Source of the DNA: a virus
Direction: 5' to 3' (one strand)
IMG/VR virus record: IMGVR_UViG_3300042398_001307
Span: 1 to 64,000 of that record
DNA length: 64,000 bases
Of the stretch, positions 39,135-44,037 are shown in pieces. The notes below the pieces were generated by a model. That model saw only the letters and a program-made list of their open reading frames with translations. It searched no databases and had not been told where the DNA came from. A program made the translations under genes and the position numbers. How positions within the stretch are numbered: the first letter of the stretch is position 1; each line of letters opens with the position of its first letter.

Positions 39135-39665
39135 TTATTTGAACATTTGCAAGATATTTTTCATAGCATCTGTATTACTATCCCATGTTTGTCCGCCAAA
39201 TCGTCCGTATTCTATACGGTTATCAACAGACCATTTATTATAATAATCGGACAATTCACCATTGCATTCCAATAGTTCATCACCGTAATTAATTATCATT
39301 ACATTAGGATTCATGCAATCACGAATTGAATAAACCTTCTCAAACGCTTCTTTAATACACATGCCATGTTGTATTAGTACTAGAATAGCAGTTGCTGTAC
39401 TTCTACTAACACCAGCATGACAATGAATTAAAACTTTATCAGTATCAGTAAATGTTTTACTGAATTCTAAAATATTTTCAATATTTTGTAAAGTAGGATG
39501 TTGATATCCTTCTAATGGTACTTCAATATCATAAAATCTTTCTATATGATGTGGAACATCACATTCAAATACAGGTGTAGTTGGATCAACAATGCTAATG
39601 ACTTTAGTATGGGTTGGTGCCCATAAACTTGCTTCGTACAATCCTGATATAGTTATATCTAACAT
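39135..39665 (-). CDS. Cys-based (tyrosine/dual-specificity) phosphatase
   Basis: HCHAGVSRS. Confidence 0.85.
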   Translation of the reverse strand: MLDITISGLYEASLWAPTHTKVISIVDPTTPVFECDVPHHIERFYDIEVPLEGYQHPTLQNIENILEFSKTFTDTDKVLIHCHAGVSRSTATAILVLIQHGMCIKEAFEKVYSIRDCMNPNVMIINYGDELLECNGELSDYYNKWSVDNRIEYGRFGGQTWDSNTDAMKNILQMFK

Positions 39666-40113: not shown

Positions 40114-40351
40114 ATAATTTATAACACTCTCCCACTATGTGTTTTAGACGGTTCGTATCCGAATAAAGAGTGTATATTAAAACATACTCACTTTAACTTG
40201 TCAAGAACCGTAATTCTTAATGCTGATCTAATATGTTTTAATATTTGCTAAGACATCCTTAGCTTGTCTATTGAAATTATCTCCAGAACCCCCTGCTTTC
40301 CGAAACTTTTTAAGTGTTTTCAGTGCCAGGTGCACCATTCACTGTGTAGAT

Positions 40352-40380
40352 ATTATAATCTGTGTTACTGTGTCTGTCAA
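40352..40380 (-). promoter_or_regulatory. Sigma70 promoter proximal to the tRNA array
   Basis: TTGACA-17-TATAAT. Confidence 0.75.
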
Positions 40381-40405
40381 CTACTTTTTTAAGGAGTCTA
40401 AAACT

Positions 40406-40437
40406 AAAAAACCCTGAGAGTTTTCACTTTCAGGGTT
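40406..40437 (-). terminator. Intrinsic terminator (attenuator) after the leader peptide
   Basis: AACCCTGAAAG-TGAAAA-CTCTCAGGGTT-TTTT. Confidence 0.8.
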
Positions 40438-40465
40438 CTTTGAAAAATTAACTTATAATATTAAA

Positions 40466-40606
40466 TTATGTCTTCAAAGAACCCTCTCGATACTCCGGTG
40501 TGCGATCATTATTAATTAAACTAAATACACACCATACAGACGCAATCGAGCCGCCTTTTAAGGTTGATTGTAGTTTAAATTGTTGATGTAATGATTGCAT
40601 ATCCAT
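40466..40606 (-). CDS. Putative attenuator leader peptide (46 aa, all 20 amino acids)
   Basis: MDMQSLHQQFKLQSTLKGGSIASVWCVFSLINNDRTPEYREGSLKT*; AAGGA RBS. Confidence 0.6.
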   Translation of the reverse strand: MDMQSLHQQFKLQSTLKGGSIASVWCVFSLINNDRTPEYREGSLKT

Positions 40607-40657
40607 TTGTATCAATTTTCCTTTTATTCAATCAGTTGACCCCAACTGATGTGATAT

Positions 40658-40686
40658 ATTATACTCTTACTTATCGTTATTGTCAA
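40658..40686 (-). promoter_or_regulatory. Consensus sigma70 promoter for the leader peptide
   Basis: TTGACA-17-TATAAT. Confidence 0.8.
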
Positions 40687-40808
40687 GAACTTTTTAAAAT
40701 TCTTTTCCGGTTAAGTGAAAGTATTTATCATTTAACCGGAATTACTATCTAATATGTGTATATTTTAACATATTTTGTTTGTTTGTCAAGAACTACTTTT
40801 ATTTATGT

Positions 40809-41096
40809 TTATTGTTTGACTGCCATAATTTTTTGTACTCTAAAGTATGGTTTTAAAACATTCATAAAAGTTTTAAAGCTGTATATCCCTTCACCAGGGC
40901 CTTCACCTTGAAAAACATTAGCATACCATGAATCTGGGTATTCTGCAACAAAAAGATTACCATTTTTAGATTTTTTTACATGGGTTTTTACAAACTTCTG
41001 TAATTCAATTGGGATTTTAGTTCCAGTAAACCCACCAAGGTGGATGTTAACTGCTGATGGTTTGTATCTATTTTCTATAATTTGATGTATTTTCAT
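40809..41096 (-). CDS. Hypothetical late protein
   Basis: MKIHQIIE start. Confidence 0.5.
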   Translation of the reverse strand: MKIHQIIENRYKPSAVNIHLGGFTGTKIPIELQKFVKTHVKKSKNGNLFVAEYPDSWYANVFQGEGPGEGIYSFKTFMNVLKPYFRVQKIMAVKQ

Positions 41097-41707
41097 TATG
41101 CTACCAATGGATCTATTATTACTGGGACATTACCACGCATCATTACATTTCCACTATGTAAATCTGGATATGCATTACTACTGAATACATTGCTGTAAAA
41201 TAATGCATTTGCAATTTCATACATACCTGGATATTGTTGCATCATTCTTTTCACATCACTAGTCATTTCATAGTCAGGATCATAGTTTAAACTTATAAAG
41301 TATTCTTGAAATGTTTCTAATATCTTATCAACAATATTCCATTCTCCTGGAGAAATAGGTCTTAATTTTTCCAATTTAACTGCATATGAATCTGGTCCTA
41401 TTTTAATAATAGGACCTAATCTTTTTGGAAGATTAGGATTGTTTTGATGTTTTTTAAAGTATTTATAAAACTGTAAGTATGCATCATCATGTTTAAAGAC
41501 CTTATATATCCATGGATATGAAGGATGTTCATATGCAGAACCATATGAACCAGTACCTAGATGTTTAAAGCCATACGTATCCATTATTGCTTCCCATTCT
41601 TCCAGTGTTGCATATAGAGGTTTATCCCTTATATCACCACCTAATATTTCTTTTGCTTTCTTATAAATATCAAATTTCTTATAACCAGTCAATTCATTTA
41701 TTTTCAT
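41096..41707 (-). CDS. Protein kinase-like protein
   Basis: LGTGSYGSAY, YKVF, DLHSGNVM, IIDP. Confidence 0.75.
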   Translation of the reverse strand: MKINELTGYKKFDIYKKAKEILGGDIRDKPLYATLEEWEAIMDTYGFKHLGTGSYGSAYEHPSYPWIYKVFKHDDAYLQFYKYFKKHQNNPNLPKRLGPIIKIGPDSYAVKLEKLRPISPGEWNIVDKILETFQEYFISLNYDPDYEMTSDVKRMMQQYPGMYEIANALFYSNVFSSNAYPDLHSGNVMMRGNVPVIIDPLVA

Positions 41708-41864: not shown

Positions 41865-42270
41865 AGATTACGAGCACACTTTGCCTTAAGCAGGCAAAGT
41901 TAAAAAAATCTACTTCATCTGAGTTGACTTCGACTAGCATTACAACATTACCGAGGCGGTCAGCCTGTACCTCTAGTTGCGTCTTTATCTGACGGCGGGT
42001 ATATATACAAATGCCAGTTTCTTGCATATATCCGTGTGGAATTTATCCACTCTTTTAGCCTTAAATTTTCTCTCTTCAAATAGCAAAACCGGTTGTATGA
42101 AGGCATATCCGATCATCGTCCTGTTAAGGATAGTTGCTAAGTACTCCATTACAGCGTGGAGATTAATGTCCAAGTGGCTTTTCTGCCCTATTTTCATTAC
42201 ACACGAAATAAACCTGTGCTAGTCATAACTGTACTATTGTGCCTGAAAAATGTGCCTAAGAATTGCCTAA
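41865..42270 (-). ncRNA. Candidate large structured ncRNA
   Basis: Own promoter (42279-42307, TAGACA-17-TATAAT), no credible ORF, many hairpins, raised GC. Confidence 0.5.
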
Positions 42271-43490: not shown

Positions 43491-43835
43491 GGTATTTTTG
43501 GTTATAAGGTATTTCCTACCCCAGAACTCGCTGGATATTAAGCAGCGATAGCATCAAAGATGCCATCTACAGTGTAGAATTCAAATTTTGTATTTGCTTT
43601 TGCATTTACTTTAAATGCTTGATTTACGGTCATCGCCTACCGATTCTCCAATGTTCTTTTATCCAGCAATCGAATCTAAGTCAGGCCCATTATAAAACAT
43701 ATTAGCACTTCCCTTTTAAGGGGCAGGAAGTTTATGGCTATGGCCCCACTCTGATACCTCTAATATGTTTTATGGTGGACCTGGCGATGTTCTGCCCATC
43801 GCGTCTTACCAAACTATTACAACATCTTCAACGAA
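43491..43835 (-). ncRNA. ssrA: Two-piece (circularly permuted) tmRNA
   Basis: 3' piece CAGGTCC-ACCA (ends 43773) precedes 5' piece GGGCCTG (starts 43688), G3:U70; tag 43538-43603 AKANTKFEFYTVDGIFDAIAA*. Confidence 0.88.
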
Positions 43836-44037
43836 TTCTTTAAATTACATGTATTATACTACATAAAAAACTTTTGTCAAGAACTATTTTCTTTTTACAC
43901 GTGGTTTAATTCTTGGTTTACCGGTTAATGAGTTGTTTCTGCTTCTAGCCATTGTAAATACCTCTGTTGTTTAAGATGGGTTTATTATACATCAGCCAAA
44001 CGTGATGTCAAGCATTTTTTAATAAATACTACTATTA

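What the first reader, a model, noticed from the sequence alone, without database searches (positions are those of the whole stretch)
40406..40686. Attenuator whose leader peptide contains all 20 amino acids, at the head of the tRNA/decoy operon
Seen: a consensus promoter (40658-40686), RBS and 46-codon ORF (40466-40606) that uses all 20 amino acids by codon 39, including GC-rich codons unusual for this AT-rich genome (GGC, TCG, GCG, CGC, CCG). Codons 41-45 (AGGGTTCTTTGAA, 40473-40485) are a perfect 13-bp complement of 40432-40444, which overlaps the 5' arm of an intrinsic terminator (40406-40437). Established: trp/his-type attenuation logic. Inference: stalling on any depleted or cleaved tRNA frees the antiterminator and boosts tRNA-array transcription, making a general tRNA-damage sensor. 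Caveat: another consensus promoter lies downstream of the terminator (40352-40380), so control may be only partial.
Basis: partly seen in the sequence, partly recalled or inferred. Interest (0 to 1): 0.85.

Follow-up and report, generated by a model that had tools for sequence, protein, structure and literature searches.

The report
Translation-coupled terminator before phage tRNA array
A lake-water phage keeps a tiny translated gene whose end is built into an RNA hairpin that competes with a transcription stop signal just ahead of its tRNA genes, so it probably ties stopping to how well ribosomes are working, but it does not look like a sensor for all 20 amino acids or a master switch of the tRNA genes.

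Summary

For the attenuator reading:
- The ORF frame survives in-frame indels in a 51%-identical relative.
- The middle of the peptide is unconstrained (dN/dS about 1.5).
- The start region pairs with the ORF 3' end, with two compensatory changes.
- In a folding model, a ribosome on codons 2-36 leaves the terminator 4-36% formed. A ribosome at the ORF end gives 94%.

Against the "all-20 sensor / head of operon" reading:
- Pro, Glu and Tyr occur only in the invariant PEY block next to the hairpin arm, and Tyr39 never senses.
- 3 of 12 family members lack 1-3 amino acids.
- A consensus promoter lies 26 nt past the terminator, and 9 more promoter sites lie in front of or within the array.
- Cassettes after that promoter are swapped between relatives, as at PeSL modules.

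Verdict: attenuator-like translation-coupled terminator (0.45), ordinary early cassette (0.35). This scan has already noted the same element in sister genomes.

The parts
40705..40741 (-). Stem-loop (14-nt arms, 9-nt loop) just upstream of promoter P1. Together with P1 it forms a PeSL-like stem-loop plus early-promoter module.
   Evidence: Inverted repeat I22; sequence.
40658..40686 (-). Promoter P1, TTGACA-17-TATAAT, with an A-rich upstream stretch.
   Evidence: 12 of 12 consensus positions. Both hexamers are invariant in 5 of 5 aligned sequences while the spacer varies.
40631..40650 (-). 5'-terminal 8-bp hairpin with a GGGT loop at the start of the transcript.
   Evidence: Folds. One pair changes on both sides (U-A to A-U) in the L012 lineage (columns 6/23).
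40619..40623 (-). Shine-Dalgarno-like AAGGA, 12 nt before the ATG.
   Evidence: Sequence; conserved. This spacing is rare (1 of 51 long ORFs).
40466..40606 (-). 46-codon leader-like ORF (MDMQ...GSLKT, stop TAA). Translated frame; peptide middle unconstrained.
   Evidence: In-frame length differences in three separate segments against L012. In-frame 3-nt deletion in L006 and in run X15. The TTG at 40615 is out of frame in L012, so ATG 40606 is the start.
40597..40615 (-). 5' strand of a long-range helix that sequesters the spacer, the start codon and codons 2-4.
   Evidence: It pairs with 40503-40487. Two adjacent pairs change on both sides in L012 (UGC/GCA to CAC/GUG).
40487..40503 (-). 3' strand of that helix (codons 35-40, the conserved CACCGGAGTATCG block).
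   Evidence: columns 152-167. Synonymous sites are also conserved (last 10 codons dS 0.15).
40432..40485 (-). Long hairpin (15 bp + 2x2 loop + 7 bp + 6-nt loop). The 5' arm is codons 41-46 and the stop codon lies in the upper stem. The 3' arm ends in AACCCT, which is also the base of the terminator's 5' arm. Candidate antiterminator; alternatively an RNase III-type or stabilising hairpin.
   Evidence: I4. In L012 the changes fall in the loop and internal loop, while the 13-bp base and the 7-bp upper stem are unchanged.
40406..40437 (-). Intrinsic terminator: 12-bp stem with one A.C mismatch, GAAA loop, T6.
   Evidence: A natural variant in run X15 repairs the mismatch and changes the loop, giving a perfect 12-bp stem of -16.4 kcal/mol.
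40352..40380 (-). Promoter P2, TTGACA-17-TATAAT, 26 nt after the T-run. It is the boundary at which downstream cassettes are swapped between relatives.
   Evidence: The -35 hexamer and the upstream spacer are invariant in 5 of 5 sequences. Joints at 40350 with 680 or 860 other letters in DNA runs X8 and X15. Alignment breaks at 40350-40352.

Best explanation
This is a conserved early transcription unit of an uncultured lake-water phage. It consists of a consensus sigma-70 promoter, a 5' stem-loop and a short translated ORF, and then a long hairpin, an intrinsic terminator and the next promoter.

It most likely works as a translation-coupled conditional terminator, that is, an attenuator-like leader.
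- Shown: the ORF's last six codons and its stop codon are the 5' arm of a 22-bp hairpin. That hairpin shares AACCCU with the terminator's 5' arm.
- Shown: the two folds are near iso-energetic.
- Inferred: a ribosome that reaches the end of the ORF while RNA polymerase is still on the terminator covers the hairpin arm. The terminator then forms and transcription from P1 and from upstream promoters stops.
- Inferred: if no ribosome is there, or it is held up anywhere in about codons 2-36, the hairpin forms first. Part of the polymerases then read on into the ncRNA/tRNA array.
- Inferred: a long-range helix between the start region and the ORF 3' end would limit translation to nascent transcripts.

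The effect on the array can only be additive, because P2 and many internal promoters drive it anyway. The all-20 composition is most likely inherited chance. It depends largely on the invariant C-terminal block, which is fixed for RNA reasons.
For: Translated frame.
- The window and the 51%-identical L012 type differ in length by 3, 6 and 3 nt in three separate ORF segments, all in frame. They share the same ATG and the same stop.
- L006 and run X15 carry an in-frame 3-nt deletion.
- The C-terminal pattern scan matched six stretches of viral contigs, lying on six contigs of two lineages. The three L012-type ones were read through and have an intact ORF. The other three are the close relatives, whose intact ORFs were seen.

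Peptide not constrained.
- dN/dS is 0.86 overall and 1.5 in the middle 26 alignment columns.
- The last 10 codons are almost nucleotide-invariant (dS 0.15).

RNA constraints.
- Both-side changes keep one pair of the 5' hairpin.
- Both-side changes keep two adjacent pairs of the start-region/ORF-3' helix.

Switch.
- Full hairpin state -27.0 kcal/mol, truncated hairpin plus full terminator -25.9.
- Modelled terminator occupancy is 0.33 with no ribosome. It is 0.04-0.36 with the A site on codons 2-36 and 0.94 from codon 39 or 40 to the stop. The L012 type also reaches 0.94 at the ORF end.
- Of 11 hairpin-plus-T-run sites in the contig with a hairpin of -10 kcal/mol or better, this one has the lowest occupancy in its 70-nt upstream context (0.01). 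The others range from 0.36 to 1.0.
- The natural X15 variant strengthens the terminator, yet occupancy stays intermediate (0.15-0.43).

Position.
- In the window and in all 7 related records the unit lies roughly 0.3-0.9 kb upstream of the first tRNA of a large array, on the same strand.
- My own scan found no hairpin of -10 kcal/mol or better on the minus strand between 40410 and 25492.

Expression.
- Contigs of one metatranscriptome sample (X16 = X17) cover 40472/40483-40651.
- Another contig of that sample covers 40350-40390, which includes the -35 of P2.
- The library may contain DNA.
Against: - P2, a 12/12 promoter whose -35 hexamer and upstream spacer are conserved in 5 of 5 sequences (its -10 varies in L012), starts 26 nt after the T-run. 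9 more sites with at most one mismatch lie between 40204 and 28912. Read-through can therefore add only modestly to array transcription.
- Between P2 and the first tRNA, relatives carry different cassettes of about 105 to 860 nt. The unit is not wired to a fixed downstream gene.
- The hairpin shares only 6 of the terminator's 12 stem positions. At equilibrium the terminator still forms in about a third of molecules.
- In the L012 type the modelled response is uneven, 0.06-0.79 for codons 2-32.
- The two DNA lineages are almost identical across hairpin and terminator. That structure has no covariation support, and its identity could reflect recent recombination at PeSL-like modules rather than selection.
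- The SD spacing is poor.
- There are no tandem regulatory codons.
- I found no anti-antiterminator (1:2-type) hairpin, so an untranslated transcript would read through.
- There is no direct evidence of translation, termination or read-through.
Confidence: 0.45

Rival explanations
1. It is an ordinary early gene cassette of the PeSL type. A small, fast-evolving early protein is flanked by stem-loop-plus-early-promoter modules. The terminator only insulates the upstream genes (kinase and others) from P2 and the array. The long hairpin is a 3' stabiliser or an RNase III-type processing site, and its overlap with the terminator has no regulatory use.
For: - Both ends carry a stem-loop followed by an AT-rich stretch and a near-perfect sigma-70 promoter. 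That is how PeSLs are described (PMC4122927, passages read).
- Cassettes are replaced exactly at P2 in relatives and in DNA runs.
- 23 perfect consensus promoters, all on the minus strand, show a dense early region made of small units.
- Long AU-rich inverted repeats of 13-24 nt are common in the array.
- The gene 41096-41707 matches PHROG 15752, annotated as the kinase that stimulates RNase III (E = 2.1e-15).
- The hairpin has 22 bp with an internal loop. That this resembles RNase III sites is my recollection.
- The family keeps conserved residues (LH, V, S, the C-terminus) across 12 members.
Against: - dN/dS of about 1 or more in the middle of the peptide argues against a conserved protein.
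- Synonymous sites of the last 10 codons are frozen.
- The start region is sequestered by a helix with compensatory changes.
- This terminator is the only strong one in the contig that is largely out-competed by its own upstream context.
- The terminator and spacer sequences are not repeated elsewhere in the contig, whereas PeSLs were detected as repeated elements (PMC4122927, methods passage).
- No Pfam or PHROG family matches the peptide.
Confidence: 0.35
2. The leader is a general sensor of tRNA damage or amino-acid shortage. It carries all 20 amino acids so that loss of any tRNA stalls the ribosome, frees the antiterminator and boosts the tRNA/decoy array.
For: - 9 of 12 family members carry all 20 amino acids in 42-46 residues. 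These include lineages 49-57% identical to the window (P0008, P0009, P0011, P0012). The chance level is 0.4-1.0% for windows of that length.
- With the unchanged positions held fixed, the chance of keeping all 20 is 0.08 for P0008 and 0.03-0.04 for P0009.
- Single-copy residues move rather than vanish. Ala, Cys, Asp and Gln sit at different places in different members.
- The contig's tRNAs cover 19 amino acids.
- Phage tRNAs as counter-defence to tRNA-cutting enzymes are in print (PMC10264068 and PMC11555353; listings and abstract starts only).
Against: - In the window, Pro, Glu and Tyr occur only at codons 37-39 and 41. Tyr39 gives 0.75-0.94 terminator occupancy under all three footprints. 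Glu38 and Pro37 fail under the longer ones.
- In the P0008 clade, Asp lies even closer to the hairpin arm.
- Upstream of PEY there are 14-18 types in the 11 properly trimmed members, never 20. The P0002 row was mis-trimmed by my script and is left out.
- P0005 lacks Ala, Asp and Trp. P0010 and P0013 lack Phe, although their close relatives have it.
- P0004's retention is expected by descent (0.42-0.46).
- The members are related, so the low conditional probabilities are not independent.
- P2 and the internal promoters stand against control of the array.
Confidence: 0.1
3. It is a structured non-coding RNA of about 250 nt, and the open frame is incidental.
For: - The fold energy of the 253-nt transcript has z = -5.2, with 0 of 200 shuffles as good. 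For L012, z = -3.4.
- Nucleotide-level conservation exceeds amino-acid conservation.
- The neighbourhood is rich in ncRNAs: a permuted tmRNA, a Polynucleobacter-1 RNA and tRNAs.
- The SD spacing is poor.
Against: - The frame, start codon and stop codon are kept through three in-frame length changes and about 45% nucleotide divergence in the middle.
- 12 family members all have intact ORFs of 42-46 codons ending in the same C-terminus, although these came from searches of predicted proteins.
- The interior helices are mostly broken in L012.
- The ORF part alone folds only modestly better than shuffles (z = -2.1, 5 of 200).
- No Rfam family reaches threshold. His_leader scores 23.4 bits against a gathering score of 49, E = 1.1.
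Confidence: 0.08

Closest known systems
Leader-peptide (ribosome-mediated) transcription attenuators of amino-acid operons (trp, his, thr, ilv leaders; textbook knowledge, recalled)
   Same: Promoter, short translated ORF, and a hairpin that shares sequence with the 5' arm of an intrinsic terminator. The ORF end lies so that a terminating ribosome masks the competing hairpin. The peptide sequence itself is unconstrained.
   Different: No runs of regulatory codons. I found no 1:2 pause or anti-antiterminator hairpin, so no translation would mean read-through. Only half of the terminator arm is contested. A strong promoter follows at once. What lies downstream is an ncRNA/tRNA array, not biosynthetic genes. 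The host is a phage.
General translation-stress uORFs, for example toiL of E. coli topAI-yjhQ (PMC12121999, abstract read), BmrB/bmrCD and vmlR leaders (PMC4191407, PMC9226507; listings only) and the whiB7 uORF (PMC10274678; listing only)
   Same: A short ORF in which stalling at many different positions, not at one amino acid, changes the RNA fold downstream. This is the logic that best fits the model.
   Different: Per its abstract, toiL acts through RBS occlusion and Rho. The others respond to antibiotics and control resistance genes. Here there is an intrinsic terminator in a phage, and no sequence similarity to any of them was sought or found.
PeSL (promoter-early stem-loop) modules of T4-like phages (PMC4122927, passages read; PMC2839356, listing only)
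   Same: Stem-loop directly upstream of an AT-rich stretch and a near-consensus sigma-70 early promoter. The modules flank small ORFs in a variable region. Insertions and replacements between relatives occur at the module.
   Different: The stem-loop sequence is unique in the 88-kb contig. The phage is only distantly T4-like: one protein is 42% identical to phage Melnitz. PeSLs are not described as having an ORF-overlapping competitor hairpin.
Anabaena trn operon, 26 tRNA genes induced by translation stress (PMC10272220, abstract read)
   Same: An accessory array of about 26 tRNA genes whose expression is tied to translation stress.
   Different: Per the abstract, control there is by a protein repressor (TrcR) at the promoter, not by a leader ORF and terminator. 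It is cellular, not viral.
RNase III processing hairpins between early genes of phage T7 (recalled, not checked in a paper here)
   Same: About two helical turns of duplex with an internal loop, lying directly after a coding region. A T7 0.7-like kinase gene is nearby.
   Different: Cleavage was not tested. T7 sites are not known to me to overlap a terminator arm.

Membership tests
Leader-peptide transcription attenuator (trp/his type) | Promoter followed by a short ORF with start codon and RBS, upstream of the terminator | tested here: met
   P1 matches 12/12. ATG 40606 is kept in both lineages. AAGGA is present but 12 nt away, a spacing seen in 1 of 51 long ORFs.
Leader-peptide transcription attenuator (trp/his type) | The ORF is translated, while its peptide sequence is not what is selected | tested here: inconclusive
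   In-frame indels and a kept frame support translation. dN/dS is 0.86 overall and 1.5 in the middle. This rests on only two DNA lineages. There is no Ribo-seq.
Leader-peptide transcription attenuator (trp/his type) | Intrinsic terminator after the leader | tested here: met
   12-bp stem, GAAA loop, T6, -14.1 kcal/mol. A natural variant has a perfect stem.
Leader-peptide transcription attenuator (trp/his type) | Mutually exclusive antiterminator whose formation depends on ribosome position | tested here: met
   This is a model only. Terminator occupancy is 0.04-0.36 for the A site on codons 2-36 and 0.94 at the ORF end. Only 6 of the 12 stem positions are contested.
Leader-peptide transcription attenuator (trp/his type) | Clustered regulatory codons for the sensed amino acid(s) | tested here: not met
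   No runs. The only tandem pairs are CAA CAA, GGC GGC and AAT AAT. The most frequent amino acid, Ser, occurs 6 times, scattered.
Leader-peptide transcription attenuator (trp/his type) | Downstream genes depend on read-through (no promoter between attenuator and genes) | tested here: not met
   P2 (12/12) lies 26 nt downstream. 9 further sites with at most one mismatch lie between 40204 and 28912.
Leader-peptide transcription attenuator (trp/his type) | Read-through responds to ribosome stalling | not testable with these tools
   The only RNA data are assembled contigs of one sample. These cannot show ends or levels.
PeSL composite stem-loop/early-promoter module | Stem-loop just upstream of an AT-rich stretch and a sigma-70-like early promoter, followed by SD and start | tested here: met
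   40741-40705 plus P1 plus SD/ATG, and 40437-40406 plus P2. Definition from PMC4122927.
PeSL composite stem-loop/early-promoter module | Associated with insertions, deletions and replacements between related phages | tested here: met
   Alignments break at 40350-40352. Joints with 680 and 860 other letters occur in DNA runs X8 and X15. Different cassettes lie there in L005, L006 and L012.
PeSL composite stem-loop/early-promoter module | Repeated, similar elements across the genome | tested here: inconclusive
   The promoters are repeated (23 perfect). The terminator and the spacer sequence each occur once in 88,249 bases, at up to 5 mismatches in 31-32 letters. The contig is about 25% of the genome.
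RNase III processing site | About 20 bp or more of duplex, often with an internal loop | tested here: met
   15 + 7 bp with a 2x2 loop. The criterion itself is recalled.
RNase III processing site | Cleaved by RNase III | not testable with these tools
   No raw-read RNA ends were available.
Rfam His_leader (RF00514) | Score at or above the gathering threshold | tested here: not met
   23.4 bits against 49, E = 1.1, covering only the hairpin/terminator part.

The most novel reading that the evidence does not exclude
The leader is a broad translation-health sensor of a giant lake phage. When host tRNA-cutting defences or starvation slow ribosomes anywhere in its first 36 or so codons, polymerases from P1 and from the upstream early genes run through the only strong terminator in front of a 15-kb tRNA/tRNA-mimic array. 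That raises supply of replacement tRNAs and decoys. The family's unusually even amino-acid make-up (9 of 12 members with all 20) would then be selected to widen what can be sensed.
Probability: 0.12. Interest if true: 0.85.

Novelty: new variant of a known kind. Interest (0 to 1): 0.5.

Why it matters
If the switch is real, it would be ribosome-mediated attenuation used by a virus at the entrance of its tRNA and tRNA-mimic genes. That would link two active topics. One is why large phages carry tRNA sets, with counter-defence against tRNA-cutting enzymes as one answer in print (PMC10264068, PMC11555353; abstract starts only). The other is how short ORFs sense general translation stress (toiL, PMC12121999; abstract read).

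My searches turned up no printed account of a leader-ORF attenuator in front of phage tRNA genes.

The element is small and self-contained, so a reporter test in a laboratory strain is easy. If it is only a cassette boundary, it is still a clean example of PeSL-like modular shuffling outside the classical T4 group.

Tried and rejected
- Phage GenBank search with the 751-nt region found no match.
- The flanking kinase-like protein gave one distant locus, L003, which has no leader homologue next to it that I could see.
- The metagenome scan gave only one more close copy, L010.
- The exact 19-nt arm pattern gave one unrelated GC-rich coding hit, L017, which I rejected as chance.
- P0006 and P0007 from the profile search are long repetitive proteins and were dropped as spurious.
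- The Rfam His_leader hit is far below threshold.
- The peptide has no Pfam or PHROG family. The protein atlas returned only unnamed clusters.
- Enrichment of GC-rich rare codons is not significant.
- TTG 40615 as the start was rejected because it is out of frame in L012.
- A helper helix GAGAG/CUCUC, which I inferred by eye to explain the 0.01 occupancy in the 70-nt context, is not kept in L012, which has AAG there. I do not rely on it.
- A W-to-P spacing resemblance to TnaC (recalled) was dropped because the spacing varies, 11 or 12, among members.
- RNA contigs of sample X16/X17 leave 40391-40471 uncovered, which is the hairpin and terminator. That could be structure bias, processing, termination or low depth (4-13), so it is no evidence either way.
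- The RNA contigs end 4-7 letters beyond 40651, close to the expected start. The alignment also ends there because the variant diverges, so that is no evidence of a start.
- Supplementary files of papers were not consulted.
- I did not run complex prediction, build_rna_model or the count of structure pairs. With two DNA lineages they would add nothing.
Full report
WHAT THE WINDOW IS

The window is the first 64 kb of an 88,249-base IMG/VR virus record, estimated to be about 25% complete. Near-identical DNA is held by 15 lake-water or metagenome DNA runs at half or more of the sampled words.

One large protein is 42% identical to a protein of Methylophilales phage Melnitz and 36% identical to one of Pelagibacter phage HTVC008M. 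The phage is therefore an uncultured freshwater relative, at a distance, of T4-like myophages. GC content is 30-38%.

Nearly all genes lie on the minus strand. Twenty-five tRNA genes lie between 40113 and 28748, and a tRNA with anticodon CUA lies at 43455-43381. The contig's tRNAs cover 19 amino acids, with no tRNA-Trp found.

THE OBSERVATION

- P1, TTGACA-17-TATAAT, at 40686-40658.
- An ORF from ATG 40606 to TAA 40466. It has 46 codons and all 20 amino acids are used by codon 39.
- 40485-40473 as a perfect complement of 40444-40432.
- A terminator at 40437-40406.
- P2 at 40380-40352.

I add four features:
- An 8-bp hairpin at the 5' end of the transcript, 40650-40631.
- The 13-nt complement is part of a 54-nt hairpin, 40485-40432, made of 15 bp, a 2x2 loop and 7 bp. 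The stop codon lies in its upper stem.
- The terminator is a 12-bp stem with one A.C mismatch and a GAAA loop.
- A further stem-loop, 40741-40705, lies just upstream of P1.

HOW UNUSUAL IS ALL-20

- 164 of 17,760 46-residue windows in the phage's 64 long ORFs hold all 20 amino acids (0.92%).
- An independent draw from the phage's amino-acid composition gives 0.93%.
- Among 139 six-frame ORFs of 40-50 aa, this is the only one with all 20.

The property is rare for any one ORF. About one such ORF is expected by chance in a contig of this size.

The GC-rich codons are individually rare (5-12% of their families), but the ORF as a whole is at the 16th percentile of 46-codon windows (P = 0.12). The Shine-Dalgarno motif lies 12 nt from the ATG. 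That spacing is seen in 1 of 51 long ORFs, while 43 of 51 have 5-9 nt.

RELATIVES

Protein and pattern searches found:
- The close copies L004/L005/L006 (IMG/VR) and L010 (metagenome).
- A diverged lineage on three IMG/VR contigs, L012/L013/L015, whose ORF has 42 codons and is 51% identical in protein.

Protein-only searches gave 11 further sequences of 42-46 residues in about five lineages (P0001-P0005 and P0008-P0013).

In the window and in all 7 related records the unit lies roughly 0.3-0.9 kb upstream of the first tRNA of a large array, on the same strand. This holds although the arrays differ in order: Tyr-Pro-Glu... in one lineage and Asp-Glu-Pro-Lys... in the other. The two lineages are collinear genomes overall. 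The shared position is therefore inherited synteny, not an independent association.

IS THE ORF TRANSLATED, AND IS THE PEPTIDE SELECTED

Between the window and L012 the ORF differs in length in three separate segments, by 3, 6 and 3 nt. All are in frame, with the same ATG and the same stop. L006 and a natural variant in run X15 have an in-frame 3-nt deletion. The TTG at 40615 is out of frame in L012, so the ATG is the start.

Nei-Gojobori counts give dN 0.36 and dS 0.42 overall:
- In the middle 26 alignment columns, dN is 0.64 and dS is 0.42.
- In the last 10 codons, dN is 0.05 and dS is 0.15.

The frame is kept, the middle of the peptide is not conserved as a protein, and the 3' end is frozen even at synonymous sites. 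That is the signature of an ORF whose translation matters more than its product, with RNA-level constraints on top. The caveat is that it rests on two DNA lineages.

RNA STRUCTURE

The 253-nt transcript folds far better than shuffles (z = -5.2, 0 of 200). For L012, z = -3.4. On five sequences RNAalifold predicts 85 pairs, and 5 of them have both-side changes:
- One is in the 5' hairpin.
- Two adjacent ones are in a long-range helix. That helix pairs the spacer, the start codon and codons 2-4 (40615-40597) with codons 35-40 (40503-40487).
- Two are in interior helices that are otherwise mostly broken in L012.

The start-region helix would shut off initiation once the ORF's 3' end has been transcribed. 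That would restrict translation to nascent RNA. Given four changed bases, two compensatory pairs have a chance of roughly one in ten, so this is suggestive only.

The base (13 bp) and the upper stem (7 bp) of the long hairpin and the whole terminator are identical in both lineages. The differences fall in the apical loop and the internal loop. One natural variant (X15) repairs the terminator's mismatch and changes its loop, which gives a perfect 12-bp stem of -16.4 kcal/mol.

DOES IT BEHAVE AS A SWITCH

With RNA up to the end of the terminator stem, there are two states:
- Full long hairpin: -27.0 kcal/mol.
- Hairpin shortened by six pairs plus the complete terminator: -25.9 kcal/mol.

In a partition-function model with the ribosome footprint forced single-stranded, the occupancy of the terminator's six bottom pairs is as follows:
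- No ribosome: 0.33.
- A site on codons 2-36: 0.04-0.36.
- From codon 39 to the stop: 0.94.

Shorter footprints move the transition by one or two codons. The L012 type also reaches 0.94 at the ORF end, but it varies between 0.06 and 0.79 for earlier positions.

As a control, I scanned the contig for hairpin-plus-T-run sites and found 46 candidates. Of the 11 with hairpins of -10 kcal/mol or better, this terminator is the one most out-competed by its own 70-nt upstream context (0.01). The other ten range from 0.36 to 1.0.

The geometry is therefore that of a ribosome-dependent terminator. These are equilibrium models and not measurements.

WHY THE ALL-20 SENSOR AND HEAD-OF-OPERON READINGS FAIL

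First, in the window Pro, Glu and Tyr occur only at codons 37-39, plus Glu41, directly against the hairpin arm. Tyr39 gives 0.75-0.94 terminator occupancy under all three footprints. Glu38 and Pro37 fail under the longer footprints.

Second, across 12 family members:
- 9 have all 20 amino acids. P0010 and P0013 lack Phe. P0005 lacks Ala, Asp and Trp.
- Upstream of the invariant PEY block the 11 properly trimmed members carry 14-18 types. Random 35-residue windows of this phage give 14.6 +/- 2.0. The P0002 row was mis-trimmed by my script and is left out.

The invariant C-terminal block PEYR..GSLKT supplies nine types for free. It is nucleotide-invariant, probably for RNA reasons.

With the unchanged positions held fixed, the chance of keeping all 20 is as follows:
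- P0004: 0.42-0.46.
- P0008: 0.08.
- P0009: 0.03-0.04.
- P0005: 0.02-0.05 (it did not keep them).

This is mildly suggestive. The lineages are related, and close relatives do lose a type.

Third, P2 is a 12/12 promoter whose -35 hexamer and upstream spacer are invariant in 5 of 5 sequences, and it begins 26 nt after the T-run. The contig has 37 sites with at most one mismatch, 36 of them on the minus strand, and 23 are perfect. Nine of the 37 lie between 40204 and 28912. Read-through can only add to array transcription.

Fourth, what lies between P2 and the first tRNA differs between relatives. It ranges from about 105 nt in the window to 222 nt in L006 and about 740 nt in L005. DNA runs X8 and X15 show joints at 40350 with 680 and 860 other letters.

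THE MAIN RIVAL

A stem-loop directly upstream of an AT-rich stretch and a near-consensus early promoter, flanking small ORFs where relatives differ by insertions and replacements, is how PeSL modules of T4-like phages are described (PMC4122927, passages read).

Both ends of this unit fit that description. The high identity of the 3' block between lineages could reflect exchange at such modules rather than selection.

Long AU-rich inverted repeats are common in the array. A neighbouring gene matches the PHROG of the T7-type kinase that stimulates RNase III. The long hairpin could therefore be a processing or stabilising element.

Against this rival as a full account stand four results:
- The unconstrained peptide.
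- The frozen synonymous sites.
- The sequestered start region.
- The uniquely contested terminator.

EXPRESSION

In one freshwater metatranscriptome sample (runs X16 and X17), assembled contigs cover 40472/40483-40651. Another contig covers 40350-40390, which includes the -35 of P2, and runs on into a different downstream cassette. This shows presence in an RNA library, which may contain DNA. It cannot show ends or levels.

COMPARISON WITH WHAT IS KNOWN, AND NOVELTY

The unit works most like ribosome-mediated attenuators. Within that group it is closest to uORFs that respond to stalling at many positions, such as toiL (PMC12121999, abstract read).

It fails two defining features of trp/his-type attenuators. 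It has no clustered regulatory codons, and the downstream genes do not depend on read-through.

An accessory tRNA array induced by translation stress is known in Anabaena, but there the control is a repressor protein (PMC10272220, abstract read).

My searches found no printed account of a leader-ORF attenuator before phage tRNA genes. One search returned 7 papers, none on the topic. Searches were also checked.

Notes of this scan report the same element in sister genomes, with verdicts from 'supported' to 'not a sensor for all 20'. They also report codon-matched leaders before tRNA arrays in other phage groups. I used these as leads only.

I rate the unit a new variant of a known kind if the switch is real.

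VERDICT

- Observation: confirmed.
- Translation-coupled conditional terminator: 0.45.
- Ordinary PeSL-type cassette with an insulating terminator: 0.35.
- All-20 tRNA-damage sensor: 0.10.
- Untranslated ncRNA: 0.08.
- Interest: 0.5.

Noticed in passing
window 43538-43837 (minus strand): Phage-encoded permuted tmRNA (Rfam tmRNA_permuted, 92.5 bits against a gathering score of 47). A strong terminator-like hairpin follows at 43490-43469, and then a tRNA with anticodon CUA at 43455-43381. ARAGORN also called a tmRNA in the distant locus L003.
   Followed up: partly
window 42078-42224 (minus strand): Full-length match to the Polynucleobacter-1 RNA family (RF01718, 83.1 bits against 37), inside a phage early region. 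It may hint at the host or at a phage-borne copy of that RNA.
   Followed up: no
window 41096-41707 (minus strand): The 203-aa protein matches PHROG 15752 (E = 2.1e-15). That family is annotated as the T7 0.7-type protein kinase that shuts off host transcription and stimulates RNase III. It lies two genes upstream of the leader unit.
   Followed up: partly
window 39135-39665 (minus strand): A dual-specificity phosphatase domain protein (Pfam DSPc, E = 1.1e-10) is encoded inside the tRNA array.
   Followed up: no
whole 88-kb record; window 5856-63242 and beyond: 23 perfect TTGACA-N16-18-TATAAT promoters, all on the minus strand. 37 sites have at most one mismatch, 36 of them on the minus strand. 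This is an exceptionally dense set of consensus early promoters.
   Followed up: partly
window 40345-40228 and L012 1920-2030: The unit driven by P2 keeps a conserved stretch (around 40290-40255) between lineages. The 36-codon ORF of the window (40338-40228) is cut to 13 codons in L012. This suggests an RNA element or a shifted small ORF.
   Followed up: partly
window 40174-40244: A perfect 13-nt inverted repeat encloses 45 nt just upstream of tRNA-Tyr and is conserved in L005, L006 and L012. The promoter-like site 40204-40176 lies inside it, so it may be an RNA processing stem rather than a promoter.
   Followed up: no
window 40410-40435 (plus strand): Read on the plus strand, the terminator is also a perfect 10-bp hairpin followed by a T-rich stretch, so it is potentially bidirectional. 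No plus-strand gene converges on it.
   Followed up: no
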